Below are positions 5,739-54,087 of a DNA stretch of 64,000 nucleotides, piece after piece. Positions within the stretch are counted from its first letter, which is position 1. Each line of letters begins with the position of its first letter. A program made the translations under genes and the position numbers. This DNA is from Nitrospinaceae bacterium. Its GTDB lineage: Bacteria; UBA8248. The stretch is taken from contig JABJAL010000072.1 of NCBI GenBank assembly GCA_018669005.1, positions 231,877 through 295,876 on the forward strand, read 5' to 3'. Below the pieces are notes generated by a model. It made no database searches. It was not told where the DNA came from and saw nothing but the letters and a program-made list of their open reading frames with translations.

Positions 5739-5760
5739 CCCGATCTTTTTGAACTCTTTT

Positions 5761-9716: not shown

Positions 9717-9803
9717 GGCATCGGAATTTTATTTCAATGACAGGAGAGCTCAAGATGCCGGTCATCACCGCCCATCATCATTTTATGTCCGAGGCGGCTA
9801 TGC

Positions 9804-9944
9804 CTGGGAACCGATTTCCCCCAGGAGATGCACAATGGCGCCGATATCAAGGTGCATGTAGAGAGTATTCTCGCCCTCGATTTTCCACTAGAGGATATTT
9901 CCGCTATCCTGAGCGGGAATATTGCCGAGGCATTGGGGTTGTAA
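9804..9944 (+). pseudogene. C-terminal remnant (~46 aa) of an amidohydrolase-2 (PF04909-like) gene
   Basis: The frame ending at TAA 9942-9944 encodes ...LGTDFPQEMHNGADIKVHVESILALDFPLEDISAILSGNIAEALGL*. This matches the GTDYP...GN..KLY.L C-termini of the intact paralogs at 44402 and 45453. No upstream body exists. Confidence 0.4.
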
Positions 9945-10004
9945 TTGTTAACGATGTAGGAAAATGGTTGCCGCTTTTTTTAAATACTTTAAGGAAATCT
10001 CTTC

Positions 10005-10613: not shown

Positions 10614-10878
10614 AAGAGGTTGTCGCTAATACTAATTTTCATAAACATAAATATATAAAATATTCTGTTCTCGTTTGTTGCGTAATTAACAATCCTTACC
10701 ACAAACTAGAGAGAAATATGGATACCCTTGATTGGATAACTATATTCGAGTGCCATTTGAATTAGGGTGTGATCTTTCACCTCAAATGGACGCTCTCAAA
10801 ATAATCGAAGAGCACCAAAAAACCTCCGCGAATTTCTGGAAAAATACCATTCCCGGTGGATTGCTTGTCCAAAGAATT

Positions 10879-11307
10879 CTAGCCGTGTGTCACTAATATC
10901 CCAAGAAATACGACGATTGCCGCGAGTACGAGGTTGATCGTGAGCATCGTGCCGCGCTTGGCTTTAAAGCCCTCAAAGCCCGTTTTCGACGTGAGTGCGA
11001 CCCCGATGAAGATGATGATCAGGGCGAGGACGATTTTAGTGATGAGGGCGTGCGGAATGCCCACCCCGGTGCGAATGAGCCGGGTGATGTGGTGAATGCC
11101 CGTGAGAACAAGCATGGCGAATGAGCCGTGCAGAATAGGAACGAATTTGGCGCGAAGGGCGGCCATGCATTTTTGTTTCTCGTCCTCAGGCAGGCTTTCC
11201 ATGTAGGGGAGTGCCACGAATTTTAAAAAAGCTACCCCGCCGACGGCGAGGATGGCGCTGATGACGTGGATCGATGTGACGATGACATTTCCAATGCTGT
11301 AGTTCAT
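10879..11307 (-). CDS. Hypothetical 4-TM membrane protein (CopD-like fold)
   Basis: Four hydrophobic helices with an H..SA.LAVGG motif; last gene of the scoAB operon orientation. Confidence 0.4.
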   Translation of the reverse strand: MNYSIGNVIVTSIHVISAILAVGGVAFLKFVALPYMESLPEDEKQKCMAALRAKFVPILHGSFAMLVLTGIHHITRLIRTGVGIPHALITKIVLALIIIFIGVALTSKTGFEGFKAKRGTMLTINLVLAAIVVFLGILVTHG

Positions 11308-39441: not shown

Positions 39442-40234
39442 AAAGCGAACTGGTCTTTATGATGTGATAATAGAGCAAATTTTCAAGAATCATTTCACGG
39501 CGGGTATTTCTTCATTCGATTTTGATAGGGACGAAATTGAAAAAGTTGCAGAGAAAATTGAAGCAAACCTTCCAAAAAATGTAGGCGATGTGGTTTATTC
39601 CTTTCGTTACCGTAGGGCACTTCCTAAATCTATTCAAGATACTGCATCGAATGATAATGAATGGGTCATCGAAGGAGCAGATAGAGCCAAATATACATTT
39701 AAATTGGTGAAAATTAATCGAATTGTACCCAACCAAAATTTAATTGCTATAAAAATTCCAGATGCAACTCCAGAAATAATTTCATCTTATGCGCTGTCAG
39801 ATGAGCAAGCCCTGTTGGCAAAGGTCAGATACAATAGATTAGTAGATATATTTTTGGGGCTAACAACATATTCTTTGCAGAATCATCTGAGAACTACTGT
39901 TAAAAGAGTTCAAATCGAGATAGACGAAATTTATGTCGGCATAGATCGAGAAGGATGCCACTACATAATACCTATTCAAGCGAAGGGAGGAAAAGATCAA
40001 CTTTCAGTGGTTCAAACAAAACAGGATATATCTTGTTGTACCGATAAGTTTCCAAATTTAATTTGCCGAGCACTATCAAGTCAATTTATGACAGAAAATC
40101 TTATTGCTATTTTCGAATTGACTGTGCAGGATGATCAGATAAGAATTGTTGATGAAAAACATTATCGATTAGTCCCTTCGGAGCAAATATCTTCAGAAGA
40201 TATGAAAGCATACAGGTCACACACTTCAGGGTAA
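39434..40234 (+). CDS. Hypothetical protein, candidate type II restriction endonuclease partner of the C5-MTase
   Basis: Overlaps the MTase by 8 nt, shares its low GC, and has a possible PD-(D/E)xK-like element (VGIDREG...IPIQAKGG). No family otherwise recognised. Confidence 0.35.
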   Translation: MPKKRTGLYDVIIEQIFKNHFTAGISSFDFDRDEIEKVAEKIEANLPKNVGDVVYSFRYRRALPKSIQDTASNDNEWVIEGADRAKYTFKLVKINRIVPNQNLIAIKIPDATPEIISSYALSDEQALLAKVRYNRLVDIFLGLTTYSLQNHLRTTVKRVQIEIDEIYVGIDREGCHYIIPIQAKGGKDQLSVVQTKQDISCCTDKFPNLICRALSSQFMTENLIAIFELTVQDDQIRIVDEKHYRLVPSEQISSEDMKAYRSHTSG

Positions 40235-40260
40235 ATATTTTTTCAACCAAGACCCCCATC

Positions 40261-40330
40261 TCACTTCCCCCATATGACCAAGAACACCCTAACAACCGAA
40301 ATCATCTCCCCCCAGACAACGCGGGGCGAC
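40261..40330 (-). pseudogene. 3' remnant of a fourth EamA/DMT transporter paralog
   Basis: Positions 40261-40330 are ~75% identical to the 3' end of the DMT gene at 41315 (ttacttcccccatacgacgagaaacacc...cagacgacgcggg), but the frame is broken. Lies at the right edge of the low-GC R-M island. Confidence 0.4.
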
Positions 40331-40396
40331 TAAGAATTCATGAAGAATCAATAATTTTGAAAGAGCGCAGGACTCATTTAAAAGCCCGCCCCGTCT

Positions 40397-41215
40397 TCAG
40401 GCTTGGGCCAGAACGAAATGGCGCAGTTTCTCGATGGCGTCTTTTGAGGCCTCTGTGTCCGGCTCGGTGAGGATGAACATGTGGGGCTGGCCCTCGTATT
40501 TGTGGAGGTCGATCGAGCCGCCGGCTGCGCGATAGCGCTCGGCGAAGATATCGGCGCGGGTATGCTCGACATTGGCGTCCTCGGTGCCCTGGATGATTAT
40601 CATTGGCGGCATGTGGGTCGCCTCGCCGCGATCAAGGACCATAAAAGGGTTGCCGGTTTCCATGTCCTCATCCGTGGGAAAATAGGCCTTGGTGGCGGCT
40701 ATCAGCCGCTCATTGCCCACTTTTTGTGCCATCTGGTAGCGCGCCAGCGGATCGAGTATCGACCAGCACGCGATAAAAAAAGCAATGCTGGCATCCACAT
40801 CAGCCAGGGAGGGGTCTGGTGCCATGTAGCGCGCATCATCAGGCGTGAGCGCCACCAGCCCCATCTGATTCCCGCCGCTTGATGCGCCCATCGCGCCGAT
40901 GATGCTTGGCGCCACCCCGAGTGCGCTGGCGTTCGCTTTGAACCAGCGCACGCCGTAATTGATGTCAATCACCGGTGCCGGGAATTGCGTCTCGCCCGAT
41001 AAGCGAAAATCCAGCGCGAACACGCCGATGCCGTTTTTTGCGAAATCCTGATGGATGACCTCGTTGCTAAGACGGCTGCCTCTGCCCCAGGCCCCGCCAT
41101 GCGCATCTATCACGAATGGGGCTGGTCCCTCGGGATGAGGCCGATACAGCCGGGCTTTCAACTCGGTGCCCTCGATAGTCCGGTAGGGAATGTCCTCGAC
41201 GACCGGGTTTGTCAC
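40397..41215 (-). CDS. Alpha/beta hydrolase (esterase/lipase, hydrolase fold-3-like)
   Basis: HGGAW oxyanion motif and a GxSxG-like nucleophile elbow (GAMGASSGG). Confidence 0.6.
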   Translation of the reverse strand: MTNPVVEDIPYRTIEGTELKARLYRPHPEGPAPFVIDAHGGAWGRGSRLSNEVIHQDFAKNGIGVFALDFRLSGETQFPAPVIDINYGVRWFKANASALGVAPSIIGAMGASSGGNQMGLVALTPDDARYMAPDPSLADVDASIAFFIACWSILDPLARYQMAQKVGNERLIAATKAYFPTDEDMETGNPFMVLDRGEATHMPPMIIIQGTEDANVEHTRADIFAERYRAAGGSIDLHKYEGQPHMFILTEPDTEASKDAIEKLRHFVLAQA

Positions 41216-41314: not shown

Positions 41315-42193
41315 TTACTTCCCCCATACGACGAGAAACACCCCGGCAACAGATAGCAGCCCGCCCCAGACGACGCGGGAGGTGATCTGTTCGAGTTGTC
41401 GGTAGAAAAGCCAGGAGGTGAAAATCATCAAGAGGACCGAGATGCGGGTGACGGGCACCACCTGCACGAGATCCCCGTGCTGGACGGCAGTCCAGAAGAA
41501 CAGGGCGGCCAGGGCGTTGAACACCGCCCCCACCACAATAAAGAGAACGGCCTGCCGCCCAAAGGATTTGGGTATTCCCTCGCCGGTAAAGGGCATGATG
41601 GCGATCATCGTCACGACCGAAAAAGTGTTGGAAATGCTCATGCCGAGCGTGGCCGAATCGATCCAGCCATATCCGTATTTGCGCAGCAGGTGGGAGAGCC
41701 CTTGTAGAAATGCCGCCACCACCGGGATGAGGTAGTAAGACATGGGGATTTTCTTGAGCTCAATTTCTCCTTTGTTGACCAGGAGAATTGAGCCAATCAT
41801 GATCGCCGCCGTTCCCGCGCCGATGGCCATGTTCAGATTCTCCCCCAGAAGGGCGATGGCCAGCCCCGTTGACCAGATGAGGCTTGTTTGAAGAATGATC
41901 GCCGTCCGGGCGAGGCCAAGCTCTTTCATTGATAAAAATTGAAGGTAGCGCCCGCCCACACCGTTTATGATTCCGATGCCCACGAACCAGGCAACCCCCT
42001 GAAGGGGCCAATGCTCCACCTGGCCTGAATAGAAATAATAACCCCAGATGAGGACCAGCGAGATTGAGCCCGAGATCAGAGCTGTTGTGTTTGCGCCGAA
42101 ATGGAGCAGTACGCTTCGGTAGAGTGTTCGCGCTATCGAGATGTTGACCGCGGATAAAAGTGCCAACAGGCTGGGGTGTATTGAATCGAGCAA
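41315..42193 (-). CDS. EamA/DMT superfamily transporter, tandem paralog 1 (292 aa)
   Basis: 10-TM DMT profile; ~70% identical to the next two genes. Confidence 0.6.
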   Translation of the reverse strand: MLDSIHPSLLALLSAVNISIARTLYRSVLLHFGANTTALISGSISLVLIWGYYFYSGQVEHWPLQGVAWFVGIGIINGVGGRYLQFLSMKELGLARTAIILQTSLIWSTGLAIALLGENLNMAIGAGTAAIMIGSILLVNKGEIELKKIPMSYYLIPVVAAFLQGLSHLLRKYGYGWIDSATLGMSISNTFSVVTMIAIMPFTGEGIPKSFGRQAVLFIVVGAVFNALAALFFWTAVQHGDLVQVVPVTRISVLLMIFTSWLFYRQLEQITSRVVWGGLLSVAGVFLVVWGK

Positions 42194-42291
42194 ATCGCCA
42201 CCAGAGAGGATAGAAACTAAAAAACTATTATTGCATGGAACGAAAAATAGAGCGATGAGGGGAGTCTGAATTTCTTAATTGGCGGGCGGCT

Positions 42292-43170
42292 TTATTTTCC
42301 CCAAACGATGAGGAACACCCCGGCAACGGAGAGCACCCCCCCGTAAACGACGCGGGCCGTGACGCTTTCTTGTTTTCGGAAAAAAAGCCATGAAGTGAAA
42401 ATCATCAAGAGGACCGAGATTCTGGTGATGGGGACGACCTGCACGAGTTCTCCCCGCCTGACAGCCGTCCAGAAAACTATCGCGGACATAAAGTTGAACA
42501 GCGCCCCTCCCACGATGCAGAGTATGGGCCGCCGCTCCAAGGTTTTTGGGATGCGCTCGTTCGTGAACGGCATGATGGCGAGCATCGTCATGACCGAAAC
42601 GGTGTTGGAGATACTCAGGCCGAAGGTGGCCGAATCAATCCATGCGTAACCGTATTTACGTAGCAGGTGAGATAGCCCGAGAAAAAACGCCGCCGCCAGC
42701 GGGATAAGATAGTAGGTGAGGGGAATCTTCTTAGGCTCCGAGCCTCCCTTTTTGACCAGGAGAATGGAGCCGATCATGATTGCGGCTGTTCCCGCGCCGA
42801 TAGCCAGGCTCAAGCGCTCGCCCAAAAGAATGATGGCCAGCCCCGTGGACCAGATGATGCTTGTCTGCATCAGGATCGATGTCCGGGCAAGGCCGATTTC
42901 TTTTATCGAATAAAAGCTGAGATAGCGACCGCCCAGACCACCCAATATCCCGACAACCATGAACAAGGCAATCCCCTGAAGGGGGTAGTTGTCCACCGTT
43001 CCCGTGTACAAATAAAAGCTCCATACGCAGACAAGCGTAATCGAGCCCGAGGCCAGAGCCGTCGTGCCGGCACCTAGGCGGAGCATCGCGCCCCGGTAGA
43101 GGGTCCGCGCCATAGAGATGTTGAACGCGGAGATCAGCGCCAACATGTTGGGATGAATGGTATCGAGCAA
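42292..43170 (-). CDS. EamA/DMT superfamily transporter, tandem paralog 2 (292 aa)
   Basis: Same length and conserved blocks as paralogs 1 and 3; a ~99-bp conserved spacer separates the copies. Confidence 0.6.
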   Translation of the reverse strand: MLDTIHPNMLALISAFNISMARTLYRGAMLRLGAGTTALASGSITLVCVWSFYLYTGTVDNYPLQGIALFMVVGILGGLGGRYLSFYSIKEIGLARTSILMQTSIIWSTGLAIILLGERLSLAIGAGTAAIMIGSILLVKKGGSEPKKIPLTYYLIPLAAAFFLGLSHLLRKYGYAWIDSATFGLSISNTVSVMTMLAIMPFTNERIPKTLERRPILCIVGGALFNFMSAIVFWTAVRRGELVQVVPITRISVLLMIFTSWLFFRKQESVTARVVYGGVLSVAGVFLIVWGK

Positions 43171-43269
43171 ATCGCCACCAGAGAGGAGAGAAACTAAAGA
43201 TCTATTATTGCATGTAACGAAAAACAGATCGATGAAGACTGTCAGGGTTTCTAGAAATGGCGGGCGGTT

Positions 43270-44148
43270 TTATTTTCCCCAAACGACGAGAAACACCCCG
43301 GCAACGGAGAGTACCCCCCCGTAAACGACGCGGGCGGTGACTCTTTCTTGTTTTCGAAAAAACAGCCAGGAAGTGAAAATCATCATGAGGACCGAGATCC
43401 GGGTGATGGGAACGACCTGCACGATTTCTCCTCGTTGTACGGCTGTCCAAAAGAACAGGGCGGACAAGGCGTTGAACACCGCCCCCGCCACAATGAAGAA
43501 AATAGGGCGCCACCCCCAAGTTTTGGGGATGCCCTCATTCGTGAAAGGCAAGATGGCGATCATCGTCATGACCGAAACGGTGTTGGAGATGCTCAGGCCG
43601 AAGGTGGCCGAATCAATCCAGTTGTAGCCGTATTTGCGGAGCAGGTGAGATAGGCCCAGCAAAAAAGCCGCCACCACGGGAATGAAGTAGTAGGAGAAAG
43701 GTACTTCTTTAAGCTCTGAGCCCCCTTTGTAGACCAGGAGAATGGAGCCAATCATGATTGCGGCTGTTCCCGCGCCGATAGTCAGGTTCACCTGCTCGCC
43801 CAGGAGGACGATGGCCAGCCCCGTGGACCAGATAATGCTCGTTTGCATCAGAACCGAGGTTCGGGCGAGGCCGAGCTCTTTCATCGAGAAAAAATTAAGG
43901 TAGCGCCCGCCCACGCCTCCCAGCATTCCGACGATGACGAACCAGGCAATCCCTTGAAGGGGCCAGCTGTCCACCGTGCCGGTATAAAAATAATAGCTCC
44001 AGATAAGGCCCAGCGAAATTATCCCTGAGGCCAGTGCCGTCGTGCCGGCACCGAGGCGAAGCAGGACGCTTCGATAGAACGTTCGCGCTATCGCGATGTT
44101 GAGCGCGGCTAACAGTGCCAACGCTGTGGGATGAAATGAATCGAGCAA
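43270..44148 (-). CDS. EamA/DMT superfamily transporter, tandem paralog 3 (292 aa)
   Basis: As above. Confidence 0.6.
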   Translation of the reverse strand: MLDSFHPTALALLAALNIAIARTFYRSVLLRLGAGTTALASGIISLGLIWSYYFYTGTVDSWPLQGIAWFVIVGMLGGVGGRYLNFFSMKELGLARTSVLMQTSIIWSTGLAIVLLGEQVNLTIGAGTAAIMIGSILLVYKGGSELKEVPFSYYFIPVVAAFLLGLSHLLRKYGYNWIDSATFGLSISNTVSVMTMIAILPFTNEGIPKTWGWRPIFFIVAGAVFNALSALFFWTAVQRGEIVQVVPITRISVLMMIFTSWLFFRKQERVTARVVYGGVLSVAGVFLVVWGK

Positions 44149-44401: not shown

Positions 44402-45415
44402 GTGATTATCGATCCCCACGCACACATTTCGCCCGAAAGTTTTATTGATGACGTTCGCAAAAAACGCTTCGGCAAGTCAGTAACGATCAGAAAGGGCAAG
44501 CCCTGGGAGTTTCTCGTCACGCGCACGAAGATCCTCGGCAAGGAGCGGGTCCACGTAAACCCGCTGCCCAAAGAAACCTACGATGTGAGTCTTCGCCTGA
44601 AGGGCATGAAGAAGCAGAACGTCGATATGCAGATTCTCTCGGTCGTGCCGCCGATGACCTACTACGCGCTCGACAAGGGGCTGAACAAAGAGCTCTCGGC
44701 CTCGCTCAACGAATCCTTGCTTAAAATCGTGGACGAGAATCCGGATAAATTCCGCTGCATGGCGCAGATTCCTCTCCAGGATCCCAAGGCGGCGGCCAAG
44801 GAGCTAGAGCGCGCGGTCAAAAAGGGCCACCTCGGCTGCCAGATTGGCTCGAACGTCGCGGGAACCAACCTTGATGACAAAAAGCTCGACCCCGTATGGC
44901 GTATGGCGCAAAAACTCGATGTGCCCATTTTCATCCATCCCACAGACGTGATGGGCGTGAATGATCGCCTCAAGGACTATTACTTGCGCAACTTCATCGG
45001 CAACCCGCTCGACACCACCATCGCGGCGGCCTGTCTCATCTTCGGCGGGGTGTTTGACCGCTTCCCGAAGGTTAAATTTCTGCTCTCCCACGTGGGTGGC
45101 TTCACCCCCTGGATCAGAGGCCGCTGGCAGCACGGCTACGGCGAGCGCCAGGAGCCCAAGGTCAACAAGGCCAAGGCACCCGAGAACTACTTCAAAAAGT
45201 TCTACTACGACACGATCATTCACAATGCCGATTCATTTGAGTTTGCCGTTAAGTCGCTGGGCGTGAACCGCATCCTCTACGGGACGGATTACCCGTTCGA
45301 CATGGGCAACCTGAGCCGGGCCGAGAAGATTCCGGGCCTCTCGCGTTTTTCGAAAAAAGATCAGCAGAAAATGCTCGTGGGCAACGTGAAGAAGCTCTAT
45401 AAACTAAAAGTGTGA
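44402..45415 (+). CDS. Amidohydrolase-2 family (PF04909-like; ACMSD/LigW-type metal-dependent hydrolase/decarboxylase)
   Basis: IDPHAHI N-terminal His pair, HVGG and GTDYP metal-site motifs. GTG start at 44402 with AAGGAGAG RBS; the ORF-track N-terminal extension is rejected. Confidence 0.65.
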   Translation: MIIDPHAHISPESFIDDVRKKRFGKSVTIRKGKPWEFLVTRTKILGKERVHVNPLPKETYDVSLRLKGMKKQNVDMQILSVVPPMTYYALDKGLNKELSASLNESLLKIVDENPDKFRCMAQIPLQDPKAAAKELERAVKKGHLGCQIGSNVAGTNLDDKKLDPVWRMAQKLDVPIFIHPTDVMGVNDRLKDYYLRNFIGNPLDTTIAAACLIFGGVFDRFPKVKFLLSHVGGFTPWIRGRWQHGYGERQEPKVNKAKAPENYFKKFYYDTIIHNADSFEFAVKSLGVNRILYGTDYPFDMGNLSRAEKIPGLSRFSKKDQQKMLVGNVKKLYKLKV

Positions 45416-45452: not shown

Positions 45453-46460
45453 ATGGCCATTGATCCACATACACATATTCTGCCGATGGGGTTTCTGGAC
45501 GACCTGCGCAAGGGCCGCCTCGGCAAGGCTGTAAGCATCGAGAAGGATGGCGATAATGAGTTCATGGCGTTCGAGGGCACCATCTTCGGCAAGGAGCGCC
45601 GCTGGCATAACAATCTCAAGCCGCCTTATTACGATGTGGACATCCGCCTCGGGGCGATGAAGAACATGGGGGTCGAGCGCCAGGTGCTCTCGGTCTCGCC
45701 CTTCATGACGCTCTATGCCCTCGACGCCGGGTTGAATAAAGAGCTTTCGGCCTCGATCAACGACGGTTTGACCGAGTTGGCAAACAAGTACCCCGATCAG
45801 CTCTCCTGCATGGCGCAGGTGCCGCTCCAGGATCCCGATGCCGCGGTGGCCGAGCTCGACCGGGCTGTGAAAAATGGCCACATCGGCGTGCAGATCGCAG
45901 CCAACGTCGCGGGGGAGAATCTCGACGCGCCAGAGCTCGATGTTTTCTGGGCCAAAGCGGTCGCGCTCGATATTCCGATTTTCATCCATCCCCAAGGCCA
46001 GGCGGCGGCCCCTGAGCGGCTCGGCGATTACTACATGAGAAACTTCATCGGCAACCCGCTCGACACGACCATTGCTGTCTCGTGCCTAATCTTCGGCGGG
46101 GTGCTCGACCGTTTCCCGGACATTAAATTCTATCTCTCCCACGTGGGTGGCTTCGTTCCCTGGATCAGAGGCCGCTGGCAGCACGGCTACGGCGAGCGCG
46201 ATGAGCCCAAGGTAAACGGCGCCAAAGATCCCGAACAGTATTTCGGCAAATTTTACTACGACACGATTATTCATAATGCCGATGCCTTCGTGTATGCCGT
46301 TGAAACGCTGGGAGCCGACCGCATTCTCTACGGGACGGACTATCCGGCCGATATGGGCTACCACCAGCCGGCCAAGGATATTCCTGGCCTCTCGCGGTTG
46401 TCAGCCGAGGATCAGGAGAAAATCCTCATCGGCAACGCGAAGAAGCTCTATAAGCTCTAG
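45453..46460 (+). CDS. Amidohydrolase-2 family protein, tandem paralog
   Basis: ~65% identical to the preceding gene (IDPHTHI, HVGGF.PWIRGRWQHGYGER, GTDYP). Confidence 0.65.
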   Translation: MAIDPHTHILPMGFLDDLRKGRLGKAVSIEKDGDNEFMAFEGTIFGKERRWHNNLKPPYYDVDIRLGAMKNMGVERQVLSVSPFMTLYALDAGLNKELSASINDGLTELANKYPDQLSCMAQVPLQDPDAAVAELDRAVKNGHIGVQIAANVAGENLDAPELDVFWAKAVALDIPIFIHPQGQAAAPERLGDYYMRNFIGNPLDTTIAVSCLIFGGVLDRFPDIKFYLSHVGGFVPWIRGRWQHGYGERDEPKVNGAKDPEQYFGKFYYDTIIHNADAFVYAVETLGADRILYGTDYPADMGYHQPAKDIPGLSRLSAEDQEKILIGNAKKLYKL

Positions 46461-46571
46461 CTCGCAATTTGGCGAAATAGCCCCGGTGGACAGCCGGGCC
46501 GGGGCTATGCAAGATCGGAGAATCAACGGAATTTTTTGAACTGCCATTTTCTCTTTTTGGGGGGAAGTCGC

Positions 46572-46856
46572 ATGGAGCCCAGGTACAAGGTAGGCGATGA
46601 GGTAGTTGTGCAGAACCGCTTTCCGCCCGGCCATATCCGCACCCCTGAGTTTGTCCGGGGCAAGGCGGGCCGCATCGCTCGTTATTTTGGCAAATTTCGT
46701 AATCCCGAAAAGCTGGCCTATGGCAAAGATGGTCTGCCGCTCTGCCCGCTCTATTGGGTCGAGTTCATGGTTAACGATGTGTGGGCCAATAAGCCAGGTA
46801 AGCAGCAGGACAAGATAGTGATTGAAATTTACGAACACTGGCTCGACCCGGCCTAG
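46572..46856 (+). CDS. Nitrile hydratase beta-subunit C-terminal-half homolog (SCNase alpha-like), ~94 aa
   Basis: YKVGDEVVV...GHIRTPEFVRGKAGRI...LYWVEF...DVW...IVIEIYEHWLD matches the C-terminal domain of NHase beta. GGGGGGAAG RBS. Confidence 0.5.
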   Translation: MEPRYKVGDEVVVQNRFPPGHIRTPEFVRGKAGRIARYFGKFRNPEKLAYGKDGLPLCPLYWVEFMVNDVWANKPGKQQDKIVIEIYEHWLDPA

Positions 46857-46901
46857 CGGGTTAGGGCCTTGGCGAAAACCGAAACCGATTCGAGGTGAGC
46901 C

Positions 46902-47627
46902 ATGGTAACGACGAACGATCCTAATTATTACAATTCGCACAAAGGTGGTGGCCACGATCACGGCAACGGCCATGATCACGGTCACACCCACGATGACACG
47001 CCGGTTGAGCGCGTCGAGCACGATCTCGACTATTTTCAGGTGCGCATCCTCGCGCTGGCCGATATTTTGAAAGAAAAAGGGCTGCTCACCACCGACGAAA
47101 TGCGCCGCGCTGTCGAGGACATCTACAGCAAGACGCCTGCCATCGGCTCGCGCGTCGTCGCAAAAGCCTGGGTGGACCCGGCCTTTAAAGAGCGCCTCTT
47201 AGAAGACGCTGCCTCGGCCTGCCACGAGATCGGCATCAGCACCGGGACGATTAACCACCTCGTCGCGCTCGAGAACACCGATAAAGTGCATTACATGGTG
47301 GTGTGCACCCTGTGCTCATGCTACCCGCGCCCGCTGCTGGGCCAGCCGCCCACCTGGTACAAGAGCTTTCCCTACCGCTCCAAAGCCGTTTCCGACCCCA
47401 GAGGGGCGCTGGCGGATCTCGGCTACACCGCGCCCGAGGATATTGAACTGCGCGTCGTGGATTCGACAGCCGACTGCCGCTATCTGATCATTCCGCGCCG
47501 CCCGGCAGGCACCGAGGGCTGGAGCGAGGAGAAACTTGTTGCCCTCGTCGTGCGCGATTCGATGATCGGAGTTGGCGATGCGCTCTCTCCCGCCGAGTAC
47601 GAGGCCTCCGCCGCGCTGGCCGAGTAG
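46902..47627 (+). CDS. Nitrile hydratase alpha / thiocyanate hydrolase gamma-like subunit, cobalt type, with His-rich N-terminus
   Basis: Active-site VCTLCSCYPRPLLGQPP (Co-type C-T-L-C-S-C) and a downstream YKS.PYRS block. N-terminal HKGGGHDHGNGHDHGHTHDD. Confidence 0.65.
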   Translation: MVTTNDPNYYNSHKGGGHDHGNGHDHGHTHDDTPVERVEHDLDYFQVRILALADILKEKGLLTTDEMRRAVEDIYSKTPAIGSRVVAKAWVDPAFKERLLEDAASACHEIGISTGTINHLVALENTDKVHYMVVCTLCSCYPRPLLGQPPTWYKSFPYRSKAVSDPRGALADLGYTAPEDIELRVVDSTADCRYLIIPRRPAGTEGWSEEKLVALVVRDSMIGVGDALSPAEYEASAALAE

Positions 47628-47659: not shown

Positions 47660-47700
47660 CGGCGGGGAGGCGAGAGCTTCCCCGTCGTTTTTGTTTTACG
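47660..47700 (+). terminator. Bidirectional rho-independent terminator / repeated palindromic element
   Basis: CGGCGGGGAGGCGAGAGCTTCCCCGTCG hairpin followed by TTTTTGTTTT. A near-identical copy is at 54088-54127. Confidence 0.4.
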
Positions 47701-47711
47701 CGGGATTTTTT

Positions 47712-48170
47712 TTAAACGAACTCCCCGGCGTCCGCCCTCGCGCGCACGGTGCCGCCCACCACGATGGCGGCGCTGATCAGGATGAGATTTTTGATGATGT
47801 ACTGCCCTTCCAGCGTCAGGCCGAAAGGGAACTGGGTGAAGCAGACCTCGGGGAGAAGGATCAAGGGCAATACCGTTCCCGGCATCTGAAGAAACAGCAG
47901 AAAGAGGGCAAGGCGGATGAGTGGGCGGAACAGGAGTCCGGCCCCTATCGCCACCTCCCACCATCCCAGGATCGGGACAAATAGCGCGGGGGAGAACCAG
48001 TAGACTGTCCGGCTGACCAGCTCTTCGGCCGGACTTATGCCGAGGAGCTTGAGTGCGCCGAACCAGATGAAAATGACGGCAAGGGAAATCCTGAGCAGCA
48101 TCCTTCCGTACTTTTCCATCCATCCCGAAATTCGAAGGTCGATTCTTTCTAATTCCTGTGTCCATTCCAT
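47712..48170 (-). CDS. DUF417/DoxX-like small membrane protein
   Basis: 4 TM helices with the FGALKLL motif typical of YkgB/DUF417. Confidence 0.4.
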
Positions 48171-49278: not shown

Positions 49279-49492
49279 GTTTATCAGAGGGCGCCGTCGA
49301 CGACGCCCTCTGCCTGCCGAGTACGAGGCCTCCACTGCGCTGGCTGAGTAGGGGTTTGCGCTATTTGGAATTTGTCATCTCATCCGCCTTGGTTCGTGTT
49401 TGTGGCGTAATAGTAAATCTAGGTGAATATTAAACTTTGATGGGTACCGTTGTTAATCTCGGCGCAATGGATTGAAGAAAGGAGATTTCTTC

Positions 49493-49855
49493 GTGAGAAA
49501 GTTAATTCCTGTTTTTGTTTGTGCGGCGGTCGCCATTGTTCTGGCGGCCAGTAGGATGGATGCTTCTGGGGCAAATGCCGATGCCGGTAAGGCGAATTAT
49601 CAAAGATTCTGTGCGGGTTGCCATGGCATAAATGGCAAGGGAGACGGGCCTTCATCTCAAATGTTGAATCCCAAGCCTCGGGATCATACCAATGCCAAGT
49701 ACATGAAAAACCTTTCTGATGAGCATATCTTCAAGGCCATAAAAATGGGCGGCGCAGGGGTTGGTAAATCATTTTCCATGCCTTCGTGGGGCGGCCAATT
49801 GAGTGATAAAGATATTGAAAATATAGTTGCCTTTATCCGAACACTCTCCAAGTAA
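49493..49855 (+). CDS. Class I c-type cytochrome (mono-haem)
   Basis: Signal peptide, CAGCHG haem-binding site, and a distal Met ligand region (SMPSWG). GTG start with AAAGGAG RBS. Confidence 0.65.
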   Translation: MRKLIPVFVCAAVAIVLAASRMDASGANADAGKANYQRFCAGCHGINGKGDGPSSQMLNPKPRDHTNAKYMKNLSDEHIFKAIKMGGAGVGKSFSMPSWGGQLSDKDIENIVAFIRTLSK

Positions 49856-50326
49856 GGCCACGGGATGTTACGAGAATCAAAATGCCGGGTGTGCCCCGGG
49901 AACACCACTTGGAGCCCGTGCAAGCGACCTGCCTCTACTCAAACCGGCCCCAAGTCAAATGAGAGGTGTGCTCCGTAATATCTGGGTCTCGAATAAAATC
50001 CATTTTTTGAAATCAGGTAACAATTCCATGGCCTATACCAATTCCTTAACATTTCAGTCTGCTCGCAATCATTTGTGTCCAAAACACGATTAAAAAGACT
50101 CCGAGAATAGAAAAAGGTCCGACGTAAGTATCCAGATTCATCGTCATATCCAAAAAATTCGCCATTGTCGACAAATGCGCGCCCAACGAAACTGGCTGAA
50201 ATTTTCTCTCCCCCAAATTCTATATATGTACTGTTTGAATGGGGATGACATGCCACTGGGAATATCATCATTCCCAAAGAGAGTTCTGTAATCTTTGGAC
50301 TTGTCCCGCCAAACCCGCTACCTATT

Positions 50327-53300
50327 TCATGAACAACTACCCGAAGTGGTGGAAACCAGCGCGCGGAAGCTGGCGCCGCTATCCACTTTGAAGCCCGGCT
50401 CGAGCCGGATGCCGCCTGTCGCGCTTTTCATGTGGAAGGTCACCCGGCTGCCTCGGCCCACGTTGACCCCTTTTCCCGCGACGATGGTGTCCGTCGCGGT
50501 GATAGAAGAGGGTGCTGTGAAGGCGCGGTTTGAGAGAGCGAGGTTTTTGGGGGGGGCCACACAGACCGACCTCTCATTTCCCAGATTGCTAAGGCCGCCC
50601 GATGCGTCCACCGCCTGGACGGAATAGATGTAGCTCATTCCCACCAGCACCGCAGTGTCCACGAACTGCGTTCCCGTTTGGTCCGAGGCGACGAGCACCT
50701 TCTCGCACGTCGGGCAGGATTTTCTGTAAACATTGTAGGAAACTGCCTCGCTCACAGCTGTCCAGTCGACTGTTGCTTGGCCGTTCCCCTGACTGATAGG
50801 CACCGACACAGTAACGGTTTTCAAGCTGTTATTTCCGCTCTCATCAGTGCTCTGAACCGTGATCGTATAGATCCTTCCGTTTCCCCCGCCCGAGCGCTCA
50901 GCCCGAAGGTTCAGCGTCAGATCTCCCGTAATCTCCCAATCAGGGGCGGTATCTCCGTCACCCGTACCGTTGACCGGCTCGTTGCTTGTCACCGATATGA
51001 TCTTCGAGCTTGGGAAAAGAGAGACATTGTCTTCTGCATCAACCGTTACACTCACCGGCTTCATTTTATGGTCCGGAGGAAAGAGTACATTAGAATTCAC
51101 CGAAACGCTGTTTATGACAGGAGGCGCCGTGTCCTGCACGGTGACCGTGAAGGTTTTTTCGGAACTGTTGTTGTTGGCGTCCATCGCCGTAACCGTCACC
51201 GCTGTCGCCCCGAGAGGGAACGTCGAGCCAGAGACCGGGCTGGACGCGACAGAAACGCTCGCGTCGCAGGCATCGGTAGTGCCCGGAAGACTAAAGCTGA
51301 CAACCGCGCCGCTCGGGCCCGTCGCCTCGGCCACGACGTCGGCAGGCTGGGCGAGGGCTGGCGCCGTCGTATCCTGGACGGTCACCGTCGCAGAGCAGGA
51401 GTCAGAATCTCCCAGATCGTCCGTGACCGTCAGCGTCACCGAGGTATTCCCCAAGCTGTAGGGACCCGGGGGAACCTGGGACAGCGTTATCGGATCGCCG
51501 TCCGGGTCCGAGGAGCCCGCGTCGATATCTGCCGCGGCCACACCGCCTGCCCCGCACTCTGCGATTACTACCTGGCACGAAGCCAGCGGCGGGTTATTCG
51601 GGGGTGCGGGCGGAGCCAATTCGATCTTCGCTATAAAGGCATCATATGTGCCGCCACCGAACGTGGTCTGGAATGCACCATCTGTGGTTGGGTAAGATGA
51701 AGAAAAAGCTATTCCAGATACATAAATATTTTCCTGGGGGTCAATTGCAATAGCTCTGCAATAATTTCGGCCACCTCCCAAGAAAGTAGAGTAGGTAACA
51801 TCTGTCCCAGTGGCGTTTAATTCCAAAACAAAACAAAGATCGGTATCAATAAAATCTGACTGAAAAGCATCCGGAGTTGTTGGGAAATCTAAAGATTTTG
51901 TACGTCCTGCCAAGTATGTTAATCCGGAAGAGTTAATTGCAATCGCCGATCCATCATCTAAATACGACCCTCCCAAATAAGTCGAAAAAAGAAGACCTGT
52001 GCCAGAGGCATTTAGTTTCGTTACGAATGCGTCCCAATCGCCACCCAATGACCTCTGGTAAGCCGCTTCCGTTGTCGGAAAATCTGTTGAGTCTGTTTGC
52101 CCCGCCACGGTTGCATTACCCGACAGATCGACAACTATACCTCTGCCAAGCTCTGTTCCACTTCCTCCCAAAAATGTTGAGTAAACAAGTGCAGTTCCTG
52201 ATGAATTCAGCTTACTTACAAATACGTCGTAATTTGAGCCACTGCCAAGGAGTGATGCCTGAAAAACACCAGGAGTAATTGGGAACTCCGCAGAATACGT
52301 TCCCCCCGTGACGAATGCGTTGCCTGAAATATCAACAGCCAAACCATATGCGGCATCGTTCTCGCTTCCACCCAAAAGTGTTGAATATAGAAGTGTCTCC
52401 CCCGTTGAATTTATCTTAAAAACGAAAGCATCGGTTTGATATCCACCAAAAACTGTCTGGACCGCCCCTGAGGTTGTAGGAAATAGAGATACGGGATCTC
52501 CCGAATAGTCCCGCCCCCATGTACTCCCAGCCACATAAGCGTTACCTGATAAGTCAAGGGCAATCGCAGTTCCAGCATCTGCCCCTCCCCCTCCCACCAA
52601 AGTCGAATATATTAAATTCGATCCATCCGAATTCAATTTACTTACAAAAACGTCGTATTCGCCAGCATTTACTTCGCTGAAAGCTCCTGATGTCACGGGA
52701 AAATCAACTGACCGGGTACTGCCCGTCAAATATGCATTCCCAGTCGAGTCGACAGCGATTGAGTTGGCATTGTCAATTCCACTTCCACCAAGATAGGTCG
52801 AATAGATTAGAGCAGTTCCCGAATCGTTTAGCTTGGCCACAAAAATGTCACTGCTCGATCCACTACCTGAAATCGAAGGTTGATAAGTTCCCGTCGAAAT
52901 GGGGAAATCCGTTGAATTTGTGTATCCGACAATTAATACGTTCCCCAAAGAATCAACTGCCATGTCTACGCCTATATCATCGCTGGCGCCCCCTAAGTAG
53001 GTCGAATATATCAAGACAGGATCGATTACGAGGGGTTTGGACTTATCGTAGGAGGCTACCTGGAAGCTCACTTCGTTTTGGGCGCCTAGGATAAACTTTC
53101 CGGAGATAGATTTTCTCTCGCCATTAATTTGCTGATAAATCACCGGCGCCTTTTGGACCACCTCGCCGCCCGGGGTGGAGAGAATTAGATCTCTTGCCGA
53201 ATTTAAAGAAATCTTCTTTGCGCCTTTAAATTTAAGCCGAATCCGCTCGGGGTCGGCGCCGGGTGAGACGATGAAGTCGAATTCGAGTTTTCTCTGGTTT

Positions 53301-53794
53301 CCGTAATAGATGAGATCGATGCCGGGATAGACGTCTTGGTAGCGTACTTTTTCATAAAGGGGGACCCTCGTGCGCCACTTGGCCGAATCCCTGCCGATGA
53401 AGTAATTGATCTTGCCCGCCAGCTGGGCTTCGCCCGCCATCTCGGGATTTTTCTTCGCGCCGATAAGGCTCATCCGGAGGACATCGGACGCGCGGAGGCC
53501 ACCGCCAACCGGAAGAGAGCCTAGGCGGTCCGCCGCGCTTTTCTTTGGCGAGGGTTTATAGAGGGAGAGCACTGCTTCGCTGGGTGTGAGGTAAAGGGTG
53601 TAGCCACGGCTTCTGGCGAGGTACTTAACCTGCCCGTCCGTTTGACCCTGGTTTTTTTCAAATGAGAGCGGGGTCTTGCTGAATGATTTGATCAAATGCC
53701 CATGATTTGTTTTTTTGGCGTATGCCCCCGCTGGAATCAGCAGCAAAAAGGCAAAATAGATGGTGAAAATCACGCCTGCGGTTCGTGTAGACAT
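50327..53794 (-). CDS. Large secreted beta-propeller (SBBP-type) repeat protein with C-terminal Ig/HYR/FN3-like domains (~1155 aa)
   Basis: Signal peptide; about 9 repeats of the pattern LxYSTYLGG..D.G..IAVD..GN.Y..G.T.S.DFP; Ig-like C-terminal region. AAGAGG RBS before ATG 53794. Confidence 0.6.
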   Translation of the reverse strand: MSTRTAGVIFTIYFAFLLLIPAGAYAKKTNHGHLIKSFSKTPLSFEKNQGQTDGQVKYLARSRGYTLYLTPSEAVLSLYKPSPKKSAADRLGSLPVGGGLRASDVLRMSLIGAKKNPEMAGEAQLAGKINYFIGRDSAKWRTRVPLYEKVRYQDVYPGIDLIYYGNQRKLEFDFIVSPGADPERIRLKFKGAKKISLNSARDLILSTPGGEVVQKAPVIYQQINGERKSISGKFILGAQNEVSFQVASYDKSKPLVIDPVLIYSTYLGGASDDIGVDMAVDSLGNVLIVGYTNSTDFPISTGTYQPSISGSGSSSDIFVAKLNDSGTALIYSTYLGGSGIDNANSIAVDSTGNAYLTGSTRSVDFPVTSGAFSEVNAGEYDVFVSKLNSDGSNLIYSTLVGGGGADAGTAIALDLSGNAYVAGSTWGRDYSGDPVSLFPTTSGAVQTVFGGYQTDAFVFKINSTGETLLYSTLLGGSENDAAYGLAVDISGNAFVTGGTYSAEFPITPGVFQASLLGSGSNYDVFVSKLNSSGTALVYSTFLGGSGTELGRGIVVDLSGNATVAGQTDSTDFPTTEAAYQRSLGGDWDAFVTKLNASGTGLLFSTYLGGSYLDDGSAIAINSSGLTYLAGRTKSLDFPTTPDAFQSDFIDTDLCFVLELNATGTDVTYSTFLGGGRNYCRAIAIDPQENIYVSGIAFSSSYPTTDGAFQTTFGGGTYDAFIAKIELAPPAPPNNPPLASCQVVIAECGAGGVAAADIDAGSSDPDGDPITLSQVPPGPYSLGNTSVTLTVTDDLGDSDSCSATVTVQDTTAPALAQPADVVAEATGPSGAVVSFSLPGTTDACDASVSVASSPVSGSTFPLGATAVTVTAMDANNNSSEKTFTVTVQDTAPPVINSVSVNSNVLFPPDHKMKPVSVTVDAEDNVSLFPSSKIISVTSNEPVNGTGDGDTAPDWEITGDLTLNLRAERSGGGNGRIYTITVQSTDESGNNSLKTVTVSVPISQGNGQATVDWTAVSEAVSYNVYRKSCPTCEKVLVASDQTGTQFVDTAVLVGMSYIYSVQAVDASGGLSNLGNERSVCVAPPKNLALSNRAFTAPSSITATDTIVAGKGVNVGRGSRVTFHMKSATGGIRLEPGFKVDSGASFRALVSTTSGSCS

Positions 53795-54087
53795 GAGGAA
53801 GCCTCTTTCAATGAGAAAAATTGACTTCAAATACCTCAGGGTCATATCAAATTGTAATGGCCTAAGAGATTCGCCGGGCTTGAAGGATGTTATTATTTAA
53901 TGATATCGATGGCCCGTATTAGATATTCTTAATATGGGAATTCTTCTCCTCTTTATCTAGGATCAAAATCGAGTAAAGTGATTTTGGTTACAAAAAAAAG
54001 TGACCCAAATCACACTTTAGATAGCGGGAGTTTTTCGGCGGGGTTCGGCACTACAATTTTCGAACTGGCGATCCAAGGGCCCTACTG

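What the first reader, a model, noticed from the sequence alone, without database searches (positions are those of the whole stretch)
46572..47627. Atypical nitrile-hydratase/thiocyanate-hydrolase-like module: beta C-half homolog plus Co-type alpha with His-rich N-terminus, no beta N-half
The 241-aa protein carries the cobalt-type NHase/SCNase active site VCTLCSCYPRPLLGQPP. Its N-terminus is an extension HKGGGHDHGNGHDHGHTHDD, a plausible metal (Co) acquisition tag. The preceding ~94-aa ORF matches only the C-terminal half of NHase beta (GHIRTPEFVRGKAGRI...LYWVEF...IYEHWLD). No N-terminal beta half is encoded in the vicinity. This resembles the split-subunit architecture of thiocyanate hydrolase (alpha/gamma) or ToyJKL, but with one component missing. 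Substrate and quaternary structure are unpredictable from the sequence.
Basis: partly seen in the sequence, partly recalled or inferred. Interest (0 to 1): 0.75.

Follow-up and report, generated by a model that had tools for sequence, protein, structure and literature searches.

The report
Nitrile hydratase lacking half its beta subunit
A marine Nitrospinaceae genome carries a well-conserved cobalt-type nitrile hydratase made of the catalytic alpha subunit plus only the C-terminal half of the usual beta subunit, a stripped-down natural variant of a known enzyme family that lacks parts considered essential in the textbook enzyme.

Summary
ORF 46572-46856 (94 aa) matches only the C-terminal half of nitrile hydratase (NHase) beta. 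ORF 46902-47627 (241 aa) is a complete cobalt-type alpha with VCTLCSCY and a His-rich, predicted-disordered N-terminal tail. No beta N-half is encoded in the 64-kb window or in 22 related loci.

It is not an orphan oddity. It belongs to a large clade of split-beta NHases (at least 584 species genomes). These normally have three genes (betaN, betaC, alpha), like the characterised Streptomyces canus AnhDEA.

Within that clade, the alphas of the two-gene form (betaC + alpha) group together (NJ bootstrap 81/100). They occur in Nitrospinota, NC10/Tectomicrobia-type, Chloroflexota and Deltaproteobacteria MAGs.

Both genes are under strong purifying selection (dN/dS 0.05-0.07). In the Nitrospinota and NC10-type loci they sit in a conserved operon behind ACMSD-like decarboxylase genes (two paralogs in Nitrospinota, one seen in the NC10 type).

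The His-rich tail is not special. It is common in three-gene alphas and present in the solved P. putida enzyme.

Most likely this is a functional, self-maturing, reduced Co-NHase. Its substrate is unknown, and a betaN gene elsewhere in the genome could not be excluded. Verdict: new variant of a known kind, moderately interesting.

The parts
44402..45415 (+). AH2_A: ACMSD-like Amidohydro_2 paralog (337 aa, GTG start, RBS AAGGAGAG). First gene of the conserved operon.
   Evidence: Pfam PF04909, E 4e-33. Best solved relatives are ACMSD, E 1e-50. Start placed by comparison with L001. Found upstream of betaC-alpha at 72-97% identity in L001-4, L009-L015, L017 and L090-92, L094.
45453..46460 (+). 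AH2_B: second ACMSD-like Amidohydro_2 paralog (335 aa, 62-63% identical to AH2_A; N-terminal HxH motif IDPHTH).
   Evidence: Pfam PF04909, E 2e-34. PDB best hit ACMSD, E 5e-46. Conserved position directly upstream of betaC in the Nitrospinota loci.
46477..46508 (+). GC-rich hairpin just after the AH2_B stop codon, in the 111-nt spacer before betaC. Role unknown.
   Evidence: RNA fold of 46455-46580: -46.5 kcal/mol, z = -2.45. No Rfam family matches.
46572..46856 (+). betaC: 94-aa NHase beta C-terminal (SH3-like barrel) half. Key residues are H21 (46632-46634), R23 (46638-46640) and the C-terminal IYEHWL motif.
   Evidence: Pfam and NCBIfam hits. Aligns to the C-half of all solved beta chains; R23 aligns with the Arg of GHTRMP in P. 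putida beta. H21, R23 and IYEHWL are invariant in family alignment A1. The AF2 model superposes on beta C-halves at 1.2-1.7 A over 92-94 residues. dN/dS 0.045 against L001.
46902..47627 (+). alpha: 241-aa Co-type NHase alpha subunit. An SD-like GAGGTG lies upstream of the ATG, which is 45 nt after the betaC stop codon.
   Evidence: Pfam PF02979, E 3e-75. TIGR01323 scores 244.1 bits against a cutoff of 249.85. Co-type PDB alphas give E 1e-55 to 1e-68, Fe-type 1e-43 to 1e-46. The AF2 model fits 1ire_A at 1.5 A rmsd over 188 columns. dN/dS 0.069.
46938..46997 (+). His-rich N-terminal tail of alpha (residues 13-32, HKGGGHDHGNGHDHGHTHDD).
   Evidence: Read directly from the sequence. pLDDT is below 50 over most of the tail in the AF2 model. 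His-rich tails are also present in three-gene alphas and in 3qxe_A.
47301..47330 (+). Metal-binding and active-site segment V134-C-T-L-C-S-C-Y-P-R143. Arg143 stands where canonical Co-NHases have Trp.
   Evidence: Sequence. Invariant in clade alignment A3. YPR occurs in 12/12 two-gene and 61/66 three-gene alphas, against YPW in the canonical enzymes. The same position is mutated in PDB 3vyh (PtNHase aW116R) and 3vyg (SCNase R136W).
47660..47697 (+). Intrinsic-terminator-like hairpin (12-bp stem, 9 GC pairs) followed by TTTTTGTTTT. Marks the end of the operon.
   Evidence: The next gene (47712-48170) is convergent, on the - strand.

Best explanation
This is a functional, reduced two-component member of the cobalt nitrile hydratase family. 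It consists of a catalytic alpha subunit plus only the C-terminal barrel half of beta.

Origin. It descends from the split-beta, three-gene NHases (betaN + betaC + alpha, the S. canus AnhDEA / ToyJKL type) and has lost betaN from the operon.

Proposed mechanism (inferred):
- Alpha binds Co through C135, C138, S139 and C140, with the cysteines oxidised post-translationally.
- BetaC docks on alpha as in canonical enzymes. It supplies the conserved H21/R23 pair to the oxidised cysteines.
- The pocket wall and the Arg/Tyr normally given by betaN are missing. The active site is therefore more open, or is completed by alpha's own betaN-like N-terminal arm (E39-H40, D65-E-M-R68-R69), possibly in an (alpha-betaC)2 dimer.
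- No activator gene is present. Known Co-type activators are reported to resemble the beta subunit weakly, and in S. canus it is the N-half subunit AnhD that acts as chaperone. Alpha therefore probably self-metallates, perhaps helped by the disordered His-rich tail.

Physiology (inferred). The enzyme hydrates a still unknown nitrile to its amide. This would be part of a small catabolic or nitrogen-scavenging operon with two ACMSD-like decarboxylases. That linkage, plus the pocket Arg143, hints at a carboxylate-bearing, possibly heteroaromatic, substrate.

What is shown: homology, domain content, absence of betaN in cis, clade conservation, purifying selection and operon conservation. What is inferred: activity, metal, maturation route, quaternary structure and substrate.
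For: Domain content and key residues:
- Pfam, NCBIfam and PDB alignments agree on a full alpha and a C-half-only beta.
- An AF2 model of the betaC-linker-alpha pseudo-fusion has mean pLDDT 87 and pTM 0.82. Both parts superpose on solved NHase chains at 1.2-1.7 A.

No betaN in cis:
- None in the window.
- None in 360 kb of window plus 22 related two-gene loci, using a sensitive 120-sequence profile.
- By contrast, betaN lies immediately upstream of betaC at all 66 three-gene alphas of the genome-locus set. The same holds in the metagenome loci wherever enough upstream sequence is present, apart from L110, where betaN is truncated.

Evolution:
- Two-gene alphas form one clade among three-gene alphas: NJ bootstrap 81/100, and 100/100 for the Nitrospinota core.
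- dN/dS is 0.045 for betaC and 0.069 for alpha.
- Clade-specific conserved substitutions exist in alpha (H40, T114, I117, N118 and others) and in betaC (Y38, F39, W62, H73 and others).
- Alpha's arm is more betaN-like in the two-gene clade: median 26.6 against 18.2 bits.

Operon:
- The AH2-betaC-alpha arrangement is conserved across Nitrospinota (two AH2 copies) and the NC10 type (one copy seen).
- It ends in a terminator-like hairpin.

Experimental precedents:
- S. canus AnhE+AnhA (betaC + alpha without betaN) retains 4.2% of AnhDEA activity and binds Co without an activator (PMC7329996).
- The ToyJ alpha alone is reported to be catalytically competent and self-modifying (Nelp 2014, as cited in PMC7329996).
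Against: - In canonical NHases the betaN arginine is essential: Fe-type betaR56Y and betaR56E are inactive (PMC7193024).
- The artificial betaN-less S. canus complex keeps only about 4% activity, and S. canus alpha alone keeps none.
- A betaN gene elsewhere in the genome was not excluded. Only 64 kb here, and about +-10 kb in relatives, could be read.
- L006 shows that the beta halves can be unlinked or missing in other lineages, so linkage is not absolute.
- The AF2 model used an unpaired alignment and a single chain. Contacts could not be inspected.
- The two-gene versus three-gene contrasts are not phylogenetically independent.
- The NJ bootstrap for the whole two-gene clade is only 81%.
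- No biochemical data exist for any member.
Confidence: 0.6

Rival explanations
1. It is an ordinary three-subunit split-beta NHase whose betaN gene has moved elsewhere in the genome. The working enzyme would still be betaN + betaC + alpha.
For: - BetaN residues are essential in canonical enzymes.
- S. canus needs AnhD (betaN) for full activity and for maturation.
- Only part of each genome could be inspected.
- L006 (betaN-alpha fusion with no betaC within 8 kb) and L110 (truncated betaN) show that gene linkage in this family is not inviolable.
Against: - At all 66 three-gene alphas of the genome-locus set, and in the metagenome loci with enough upstream sequence, betaN overlaps or abuts betaC.
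- In the two-gene clade it is absent from every locus across at least four phylum-level lineages, including +-10 kb on contigs of 0.24-2.9 Mb.
- Clade-specific conserved changes in alpha and betaC suggest adaptation to a different partner set.
- No Nitrospinota entry appears among the 120 best standalone betaN proteins. This is weak evidence, because only the top hits are listed.
Confidence: 0.2
2. The alpha+betaC pair is an NHase-fold enzyme with a different chemistry or substrate class. Candidates are thiocyanate or another anionic or bulky compound, or a substrate handed over by the co-encoded ACMSD-like proteins, which would physically complete the open active site.
For: - Arg143 occupies the pocket position that is Trp in Co-NHases. 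By numbering and PDB mutant titles, this is the position of gammaArg136 in thiocyanate hydrolase.
- Loss of betaN removes most of the canonical substrate pocket.
- Linkage to the ACMSD-like genes is strictly conserved.
- Alpha falls just below the NHase alpha equivalog cutoff, 244.1 against 249.85 bits.
Against: - YPR is shared with three-gene relatives, so it is a clade-wide trait and is not tied to the loss of betaN.
- The SCNase gamma model scores far below its cutoff, 188 against 291 bits.
- The betaC search did not retrieve SCNase alpha at E <= 0.01.
- Other two-gene loci (L005, L007, L084) lack the close ACMSD-like pair found in the Nitrospinota loci, although L005 has a distant Amidohydro_2 gene on the opposite strand.
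- There is no evidence of a physical complex.
Confidence: 0.13
3. Alpha alone is the enzyme. The 94-aa betaC is only a folding or metal-insertion helper, not a stoichiometric subunit.
For: - ToyJ alone is reported active.
- Small beta-like proteins act as swapping chaperones in Co-NHases.
Against: - The S. canus paper reports that swapping chaperones resemble the beta subunit only weakly. There it is AnhD (betaN) that acts as chaperone, and AnhE (betaC) does not.
- BetaC keeps the active-site His/Arg pair and the invariant C-terminal motif.
- It is modelled in the canonical docked position with pTM 0.82.
- S. canus alpha alone is inactive.
Confidence: 0.05

Closest known systems
Three-subunit split-beta Co-NHase of Streptomyces canus CGMCC 13662 (AnhD/AnhE/AnhA), and by report ToyJKL of S. 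rimosus
   Same: - Separate ~95-100-aa betaC (AnhE-like, with His21) plus a Co-type alpha.
- No activator gene.
- The gene order betaC then alpha.
- The three-gene loci surveyed here share the betaC signatures GHIRTP and IYEHWL, the alpha YPR motif and His-rich alpha N-termini. The S. canus and S. rimosus sequences themselves were not compared.
- Alpha nests among three-gene alphas (PMC7329996, PMC13243292).
   Different: - The betaN gene (AnhD-like, ~100 aa) that sits immediately upstream in three-gene loci is absent.
- In S. canus, betaN is both a structural subunit and the maturation chaperone.
- The artificial AnhE+AnhA complex has only 4% activity.
Canonical Co-type NHase (alpha2beta2; P. 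thermophila 1IRE, P. putida 3QXE)
   Same: - Alpha fold and the VCTLCSCY motif.
- The beta C-half fold and its Arg.
- The P. putida alpha also has a His-rich N-terminus.
   Different: - No beta N-terminal helical domain, so no betaArg52/56 or betaTyr68/72 equivalents.
- No P14K-type activator gene.
- Arg instead of Trp after CSCYP.
- Beta C-terminus reads IYEHWL rather than LWDDYL.
Thiocyanate hydrolase (SCNase alpha/beta/gamma, Thiobacillus thioparus 2DD4)
   Same: - The beta homolog is split into two polypeptides.
- The gamma subunit is alpha-like, and an Arg occupies the pocket position equivalent to R143.
   Different: - SCNase has the betaN-like subunit (2dd4_B).
- The gamma equivalog model is not met, 188 against 291 bits.
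- SCNase alpha is not retrieved by betaC.
Fused eukaryotic NHase (Monosiga brevicollis beta-(His)17-alpha), and the bacterial betaN-His-alpha fusions seen here (P0048, P0049)
   Same: A His-rich segment lies immediately N-terminal of the alpha core, and there is no activator.
   Different: Those proteins carry a full beta, or at least the full betaN, fused to alpha. Here nothing betaN-like precedes the His-rich stretch.

Membership tests
Nitrile hydratase, cobalt type (canonical alpha/beta) | Alpha subunit of the NHase_alpha family with the metal-binding C-(T/S)-L-C-S-C motif; Co-type signature V-C-T-L-C-S-C-Y | tested here: met
   PF02979, E 3e-75. VCTLCSCY at residues 134-141. Co-type PDB chains score higher than Fe-type chains. 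The link between signature and metal rests on established knowledge.
Nitrile hydratase, cobalt type (canonical alpha/beta) | Alpha reaches NCBIfam equivalog TIGR01323 cutoff | tested here: not met
   244.1 bits against a cutoff of 249.85, a marginal miss.
Nitrile hydratase, cobalt type (canonical alpha/beta) | Full-length beta subunit (N-terminal helical domain plus C-terminal barrel; TIGR03888) | tested here: not met
   Only model positions 136-226 are matched, 72.8 bits against a cutoff of 152. No PF21006 or betaN ORF in the window.
Nitrile hydratase, cobalt type (canonical alpha/beta) | Two beta arginines H-bonding the oxidised cysteines (N-half Arg52/56 and C-half Arg) | tested here: not met
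   The C-half Arg is present (R23). The N-half Arg has no carrier because betaN is absent. Its importance is documented in PMC7193024.
Nitrile hydratase, cobalt type (canonical alpha/beta) | Activator or accessory gene in the cluster | tested here: not met
   The operon ends in a terminator-like hairpin, and the neighbours are Amidohydro_2, DoxX/DUF417-like and Exo_endo_phos. No dedicated activator profile was run on every small ORF.
Nitrile hydratase, cobalt type (canonical alpha/beta) | Nitrile-to-amide hydration activity, Co(III) centre, Cys-SO2H/Cys-SOH modification | not testable with these tools
   Needs expression, metal analysis, mass spectrometry and enzyme assays.
Split-beta three-subunit NHase (AnhDEA / ToyJKL type) | Stand-alone ~95-aa betaC with the GH(I)RTP and IYEHWL signatures, next to a Co-type alpha with CSCYPR | tested here: met
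   Alignment A1. Genome scan and locus survey. YPR counts. Alpha nests among three-gene alphas.
Split-beta three-subunit NHase (AnhDEA / ToyJKL type) | Stand-alone ~100-aa betaN gene immediately upstream of betaC | tested here: not met
   Absent from the window and from 22 related loci. Present at all 66 three-gene alphas of the genome-locus set.
Thiocyanate hydrolase | Gamma subunit reaching TIGR03887; separate beta (betaN-like) and alpha (betaC-like) subunits | tested here: not met
   188 bits against a cutoff of 291. No betaN-like gene. SCNase alpha is not among the betaC PDB hits at E <= 0.01.
NHLP-type RiPP precursor | Short leader-plus-core peptide without the metal site, next to RiPP maturation genes | tested here: not met
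   The TIGR03793 domain hit (57.8 bits, residues 158-212) reflects shared ancestry only. The protein is a full 241-aa alpha with an intact CTLCSC motif, and no RiPP enzymes are nearby.

The most novel reading that the evidence does not exclude
The two-gene clade is a naturally minimal NHase that works without any betaN and without an activator. Its wide-open active site would be completed either by a domain-swapped alpha N-terminal arm that mimics betaN hairpin 1 (E39-H40, D65-E-M-R68-R69) or by the co-encoded ACMSD-like proteins. This would give a nitrile-hydration/decarboxylation metabolon for a carboxylated, possibly N-heteroaromatic, natural nitrile that marine nitrite oxidisers use as a nitrogen source.
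Probability: 0.25. Interest if true: 0.75.

Novelty: new variant of a known kind. Interest (0 to 1): 0.55.

Why it matters
- NHase mechanism papers treat the beta N-half as indispensable for three reasons: its Arg52/56, its Tyr and Trp pocket residues, and its role as the model for the maturation chaperones. A conserved, selected lineage that dispenses with it would show which of those roles are truly required.
- It would offer a smaller, activator-free scaffold (about 335 aa in total) for biocatalysis.
- It would point to an unrecognised nitrile-using pathway, linked to ACMSD-like decarboxylases, in Nitrospinota, the main marine nitrite oxidisers, and in NC10-type bacteria.
- The survey also shows that split-beta NHases, described as a novelty in one Streptomyces strain, occur in at least several hundred species genomes.

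Tried and rejected
1. The invariant betaC C-terminus IYEHWL looked like the betaN motif YYEHWL (P. putida beta 68-73), so it might replace it. Rejected. IYEHWL is equally present in three-gene betaC, where betaN exists. It aligns with the canonical C-terminal LWDDYL.

2. Alpha as a betaN/alpha chimera. The N-arm does match betaN hairpin 1, and more strongly in the two-gene clade. However, three-gene alphas and canonical alphas have the same helix-hairpin and DExRR-like motif. This is a paralogous repeat, not proof of a fusion. Kept only as a lead.

3. The His-rich tail as a hallmark of the betaN-less form. Rejected.

4. A simple evolutionary series from betaN-alpha fusion through truncation to loss. 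Not supported, because the full fusion P0049/L006 does not group with the two-gene clade. A remnant hairpin is nevertheless fused to alpha in the L005/P0028 group.

5. A riboswitch or known RNA in the operon: none found.

6. A solved structure of a short beta: none found.

7. A literature search for a natural betaC+alpha NHase or for a Nitrospina NHase: nothing found. A review lists six gene organisations and none is this one.

8. A search for a Nitrospinota betaN among standalone betaN proteins. Uninformative, because only the top 120 of 2502 hits are listed and many have no source name.

9. Technical failures:
- A Biopython bootstrap timed out and was redone with numpy.
- PMC4075990 is not held.
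Full report
**1. What is in the sequence**

Two same-strand, same-frame ORFs occupy the stated interval.
- ORF 46572-46856 encodes 94 aa. It is preceded by a G-rich SD-like stretch.
- ORF 46902-47627 encodes 241 aa. Its ATG lies 45 nt after the first ORF's stop codon, behind GAGGTG.
- A 12-bp GC-rich hairpin followed by a T-run comes next (47660-47697). The next gene is convergent.

The 94-aa protein:
- It matches Pfam NHase_beta_C over essentially the whole profile (E 4e-20).
- It matches only positions 136-226 of the 226-position NCBIfam beta model.
- Against solved structures it aligns to the C-terminal ~90 residues of every NHase beta chain. His21 and Arg23 match the GH(T)R(M)P active-site loop.

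The 241-aa protein:
- It is a full NHase alpha (PF02979, E 3e-75).
- It scores just under NCBIfam's alpha equivalog cutoff, 244.1 against 249.85 bits.
- It scores far under the thiocyanate hydrolase gamma cutoff, 188 against 291 bits.
- It carries VCTLCSCY, the cobalt-type form of the motif (established knowledge).
- Its best solved relatives are Co-type alphas.

**2. Is the beta N-half really missing?**

Three searches of the window found no separate beta N-half ORF:
- tblastn with beta N-half sequences;
- a small profile;
- a 120-sequence profile of stand-alone betaN proteins, run with all filters off on every ORF of at least 25 aa.

The only match is alpha's own N-terminal arm (residues 25-77). 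The last search also covered 22 related loci, 360 kb in all, with the same result.

Genome-wide absence could not be tested. Only the window and about +-10 kb around relatives were readable.

**3. What family this belongs to**

Short betaC-only proteins are common.

I surveyed 80 genome loci and 80 metagenome loci with my own alpha, betaC and betaN profiles.
- The normal arrangement is three genes: betaN (~100 aa), betaC (~95 aa) and alpha.
- BetaN overlaps or abuts betaC at all 66 three-gene alphas of the genome-locus set. The same holds in the metagenome contigs that have enough upstream sequence, apart from L110, where betaN is truncated.
- This is the architecture characterised in Streptomyces canus. 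There AnhD is the beta N-half, AnhE the C-half and AnhA the alpha, with no activator (PMC7329996; PMC13243292). It is also reported for ToyJKL.

The window's module shares the clade's signatures with the three-gene loci surveyed here:
- betaC GHIRTP and the C-terminal IYEHWL;
- alpha CSCYPR instead of the canonical CSCYPW;
- a His-rich alpha N-terminus.

**4. The two-gene form is a conserved clade, not an assembly accident**

Loci with betaC+alpha and no betaN are:
- the window, L001-4 and L089-90 (same or sister species);
- L009, L011-15, L017 and L094 (Nitrospinae, Nitrospinaceae, Nitrospinota and unnamed MAGs, some on contigs of 0.24-2.9 Mb);
- L010 and L091-93 (NC10 type; a Tectomicrobia homolog is P0016);
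- L005;
- L007/8 (Chloroflexota);
- L084 (Deltaproteobacteria).

Their alphas form one group nested among three-gene alphas. NJ bootstrap is 81/100 for the whole group and 100/100 for the Nitrospinota core.

Both genes are under strong purifying selection. Window against L001 gives dN/dS 0.045 for betaC and 0.069 for alpha.

Conserved substitutions specific to the two-gene clade occur in both proteins:
- alpha: E39, H40, T64, S83, A103, T114, I117, N118, E234;
- betaC: Y38, F39, L57, W62, N68, H73, Q79.

Part of the clade (the L005/P0028 group) still has one betaN-like hairpin fused in front of the His-rich stretch of alpha. The window's alpha has none.

**5. Structure**

I modelled betaC, the 16-residue intergenic translation and alpha as one chain, with an unpaired alignment of 73 homologs.
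- Mean pLDDT is 87 and pTM is 0.82. A pTM this high indicates a defined betaC-alpha arrangement.
- The alpha part fits 1IRE chain A at 1.5 A over 188 columns. That includes the N-terminal arm in its canonical extended pose.
- The betaC part fits beta C-halves at 1.2-1.7 A.
- Most of alpha residues 1-30 (the His-rich tail) have pLDDT below 50, and confidence reaches 90 only from about residue 40. The tail is therefore predicted to be disordered.

Coordinates could not be inspected. What occupies the vacant betaN site is unknown.

**6. Context**

Immediately upstream lie two paralogous Amidohydro_2 genes, at 44402-45415 and 45453-46460.
- They are 62-63% identical to each other.
- Their closest solved relatives are ACMSD decarboxylases, E 1e-46 to 1e-50.
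- The pair is conserved directly upstream of betaC-alpha in all Nitrospinota loci. One copy is seen in the NC10-type loci.

The conserved unit is therefore AH2(-AH2)-betaC-alpha.

Other two-gene loci have different neighbours:
- L005: TRAP transporter, NicX-like, isochorismatase-family and fumarase genes;
- L007: ABC transporter, xanthine-dehydrogenase-like and M20 peptidase genes.

These suggest small-molecule, possibly N-heterocycle, catabolism, but they do not fix the substrate. No Rfam element lies in the operon.

**7. How it most likely works**

The main reading is a functional reduced Co-NHase.
- Alpha holds the metal site.
- BetaC docks canonically and supplies His21 and Arg23. AnhE-His21 is reported as catalytically relevant in S. 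canus.
- BetaN's contributions are missing.

This is remarkable because the N-half arginine is essential in canonical enzymes: betaR56Y and betaR56E are inactive (PMC7193024).

It is nevertheless not implausible.
- The artificial S. canus AnhE+AnhA complex keeps 4.2% activity and binds Co without an activator.
- ToyJ alone is reported active and self-modifying.

A lineage under selection could have compensated. Candidate compensating features:
- Alpha's N-arm resembles betaN hairpin 1 (PVERVEHDLDYFQVR...DEMRRAVEDI against GPINRAEHELSWWEKR...DELRRAIES). It does so more strongly than in three-gene alphas, median 26.6 against 18.2 bits. That comparison is not phylogenetically independent.
- The clade-specific residues listed in section 4.

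Maturation must proceed without a betaN-like chaperone. The His-rich tail may help capture cobalt. Against a special role: such tails also occur in three-gene alphas and in the P. putida alpha, and the Monosiga (His)17 linker was reported dispensable for metal insertion.

**8. Rivals**

- BetaN encoded in trans elsewhere: about 0.2.
- A different substrate class or chemistry, possibly with the ACMSD-like proteins completing the site: about 0.13. Arg143, at the SCNase gammaArg136 / PtNHase alphaTrp116 position, fits an anionic substrate. It is clade-wide, however, and not specific to the loss of betaN.
- BetaC as a mere chaperone: about 0.05.

**9. Novelty**

- Split-beta NHases are known.
- His-rich alpha N-termini are known.
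- A natural betaC+alpha NHase without betaN was not found in the searchable literature. It is not among the six gene organisations listed in a 2020 review.
- Database pipelines simply label the small gene 'nitrile hydratase subunit beta' or 'SH3-like domain-containing protein'.

I rate it a new variant of a known kind, with interest 0.55. It would surprise an NHase specialist and can be tested directly. It remains a member of a familiar enzyme family, and its key claim, no betaN anywhere in the genome, is still unverified.

Noticed in passing
L006:8001-8984 (protein P0049); also P0048: The complementary architecture exists. A full beta N-half is fused through a His-rich linker to alpha (324-327 aa), with no betaC gene detected within +-8 kb. 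This resembles a bacterial counterpart of the Monosiga beta-His-alpha fusion, minus the C-half.
   Followed up: partly
L110:2064-2279: A truncated stand-alone betaN (~68 aa) lies upstream of betaC and alpha. It matches only profile positions 2-48 and then diverges. This suggests that betaN is evolutionarily labile in this clade.
   Followed up: partly
window 47301-47330; all split-beta loci: Alphas of the whole split-beta clade read CTLCSC-YPR (or YPK) where canonical Co-NHases read YPW. The Arg sits at the position mutated in PDB 3vyh (PtNHase aW116R) and 3vyg (SCNase R136W). It is therefore an SCNase-like pocket residue in hundreds of putative NHases.
   Followed up: partly
alpha residues 34-76 (window 47001-47129) against betaN proteins (P0204 and others): The alpha N-terminal arm and both hairpins of betaN share one repeated motif: aromatic-x-x-R-x-x-A-L-x-x-L-L-x-E-K-G-x-x-T-x-D-E-x-R-R-x-I-E. 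This suggests an ancient internal duplication shared between the two subunits.
   Followed up: partly
window 41315-44148 (- strand): Three tandem EamA-family transporter paralogs of 292 aa each. By their tblastn identities to the two L001 copies they are roughly 70-90% related to one another. They are transcribed divergently from the AH2 operon. The 95%-identical relative L001 has only two copies, so the duplication is recent.
   Followed up: partly
window 38194-41215: A C-5 cytosine DNA methylase (38194-39441) overlaps a 266-aa ORF with no Pfam hit (39434-40234), possibly a restriction-modification pair. An Abhydrolase_3/BD-FAE hydrolase follows on the - strand (40397-41215). No gene of these families was called in the corresponding stretch of relative L001, so this may be an insertion.
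   Followed up: no
window 49472-53845: A small c-type cytochrome (49472-49855) and a 1172-aa protein with DUF7948, five SBBP beta-propeller repeats and a HYR domain (50327-53845, - strand). They lie between the Exo_endo_phos gene and the two MFS transporter genes. Those genes are adjacent in L001.
   Followed up: no
window 46477-46508: A stable GC-rich hairpin (AGCCCCGG...CCGGGGCU) lies right after the AH2_B stop codon, inside the operon. It has no T-run and no Rfam match. It might be an mRNA-processing or stability element that sets the AH2:NHase expression ratio.
   Followed up: partly
L074 (two operons at ~5000-6350 and ~9400-11000); L034, L062, L066: Some genomes carry two split-beta NHase operons within 5 kb. 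Others have two tandem betaN copies upstream of betaC.
   Followed up: no
L091:7186-7584 (- strand): In the NC10-type two-gene loci, a 132-aa Gly/His/Tyr-rich lipoprotein-like ORF lies on the opposite strand between the AH2 gene and betaC. No function could be assigned, and it may not be a real gene.
   Followed up: no
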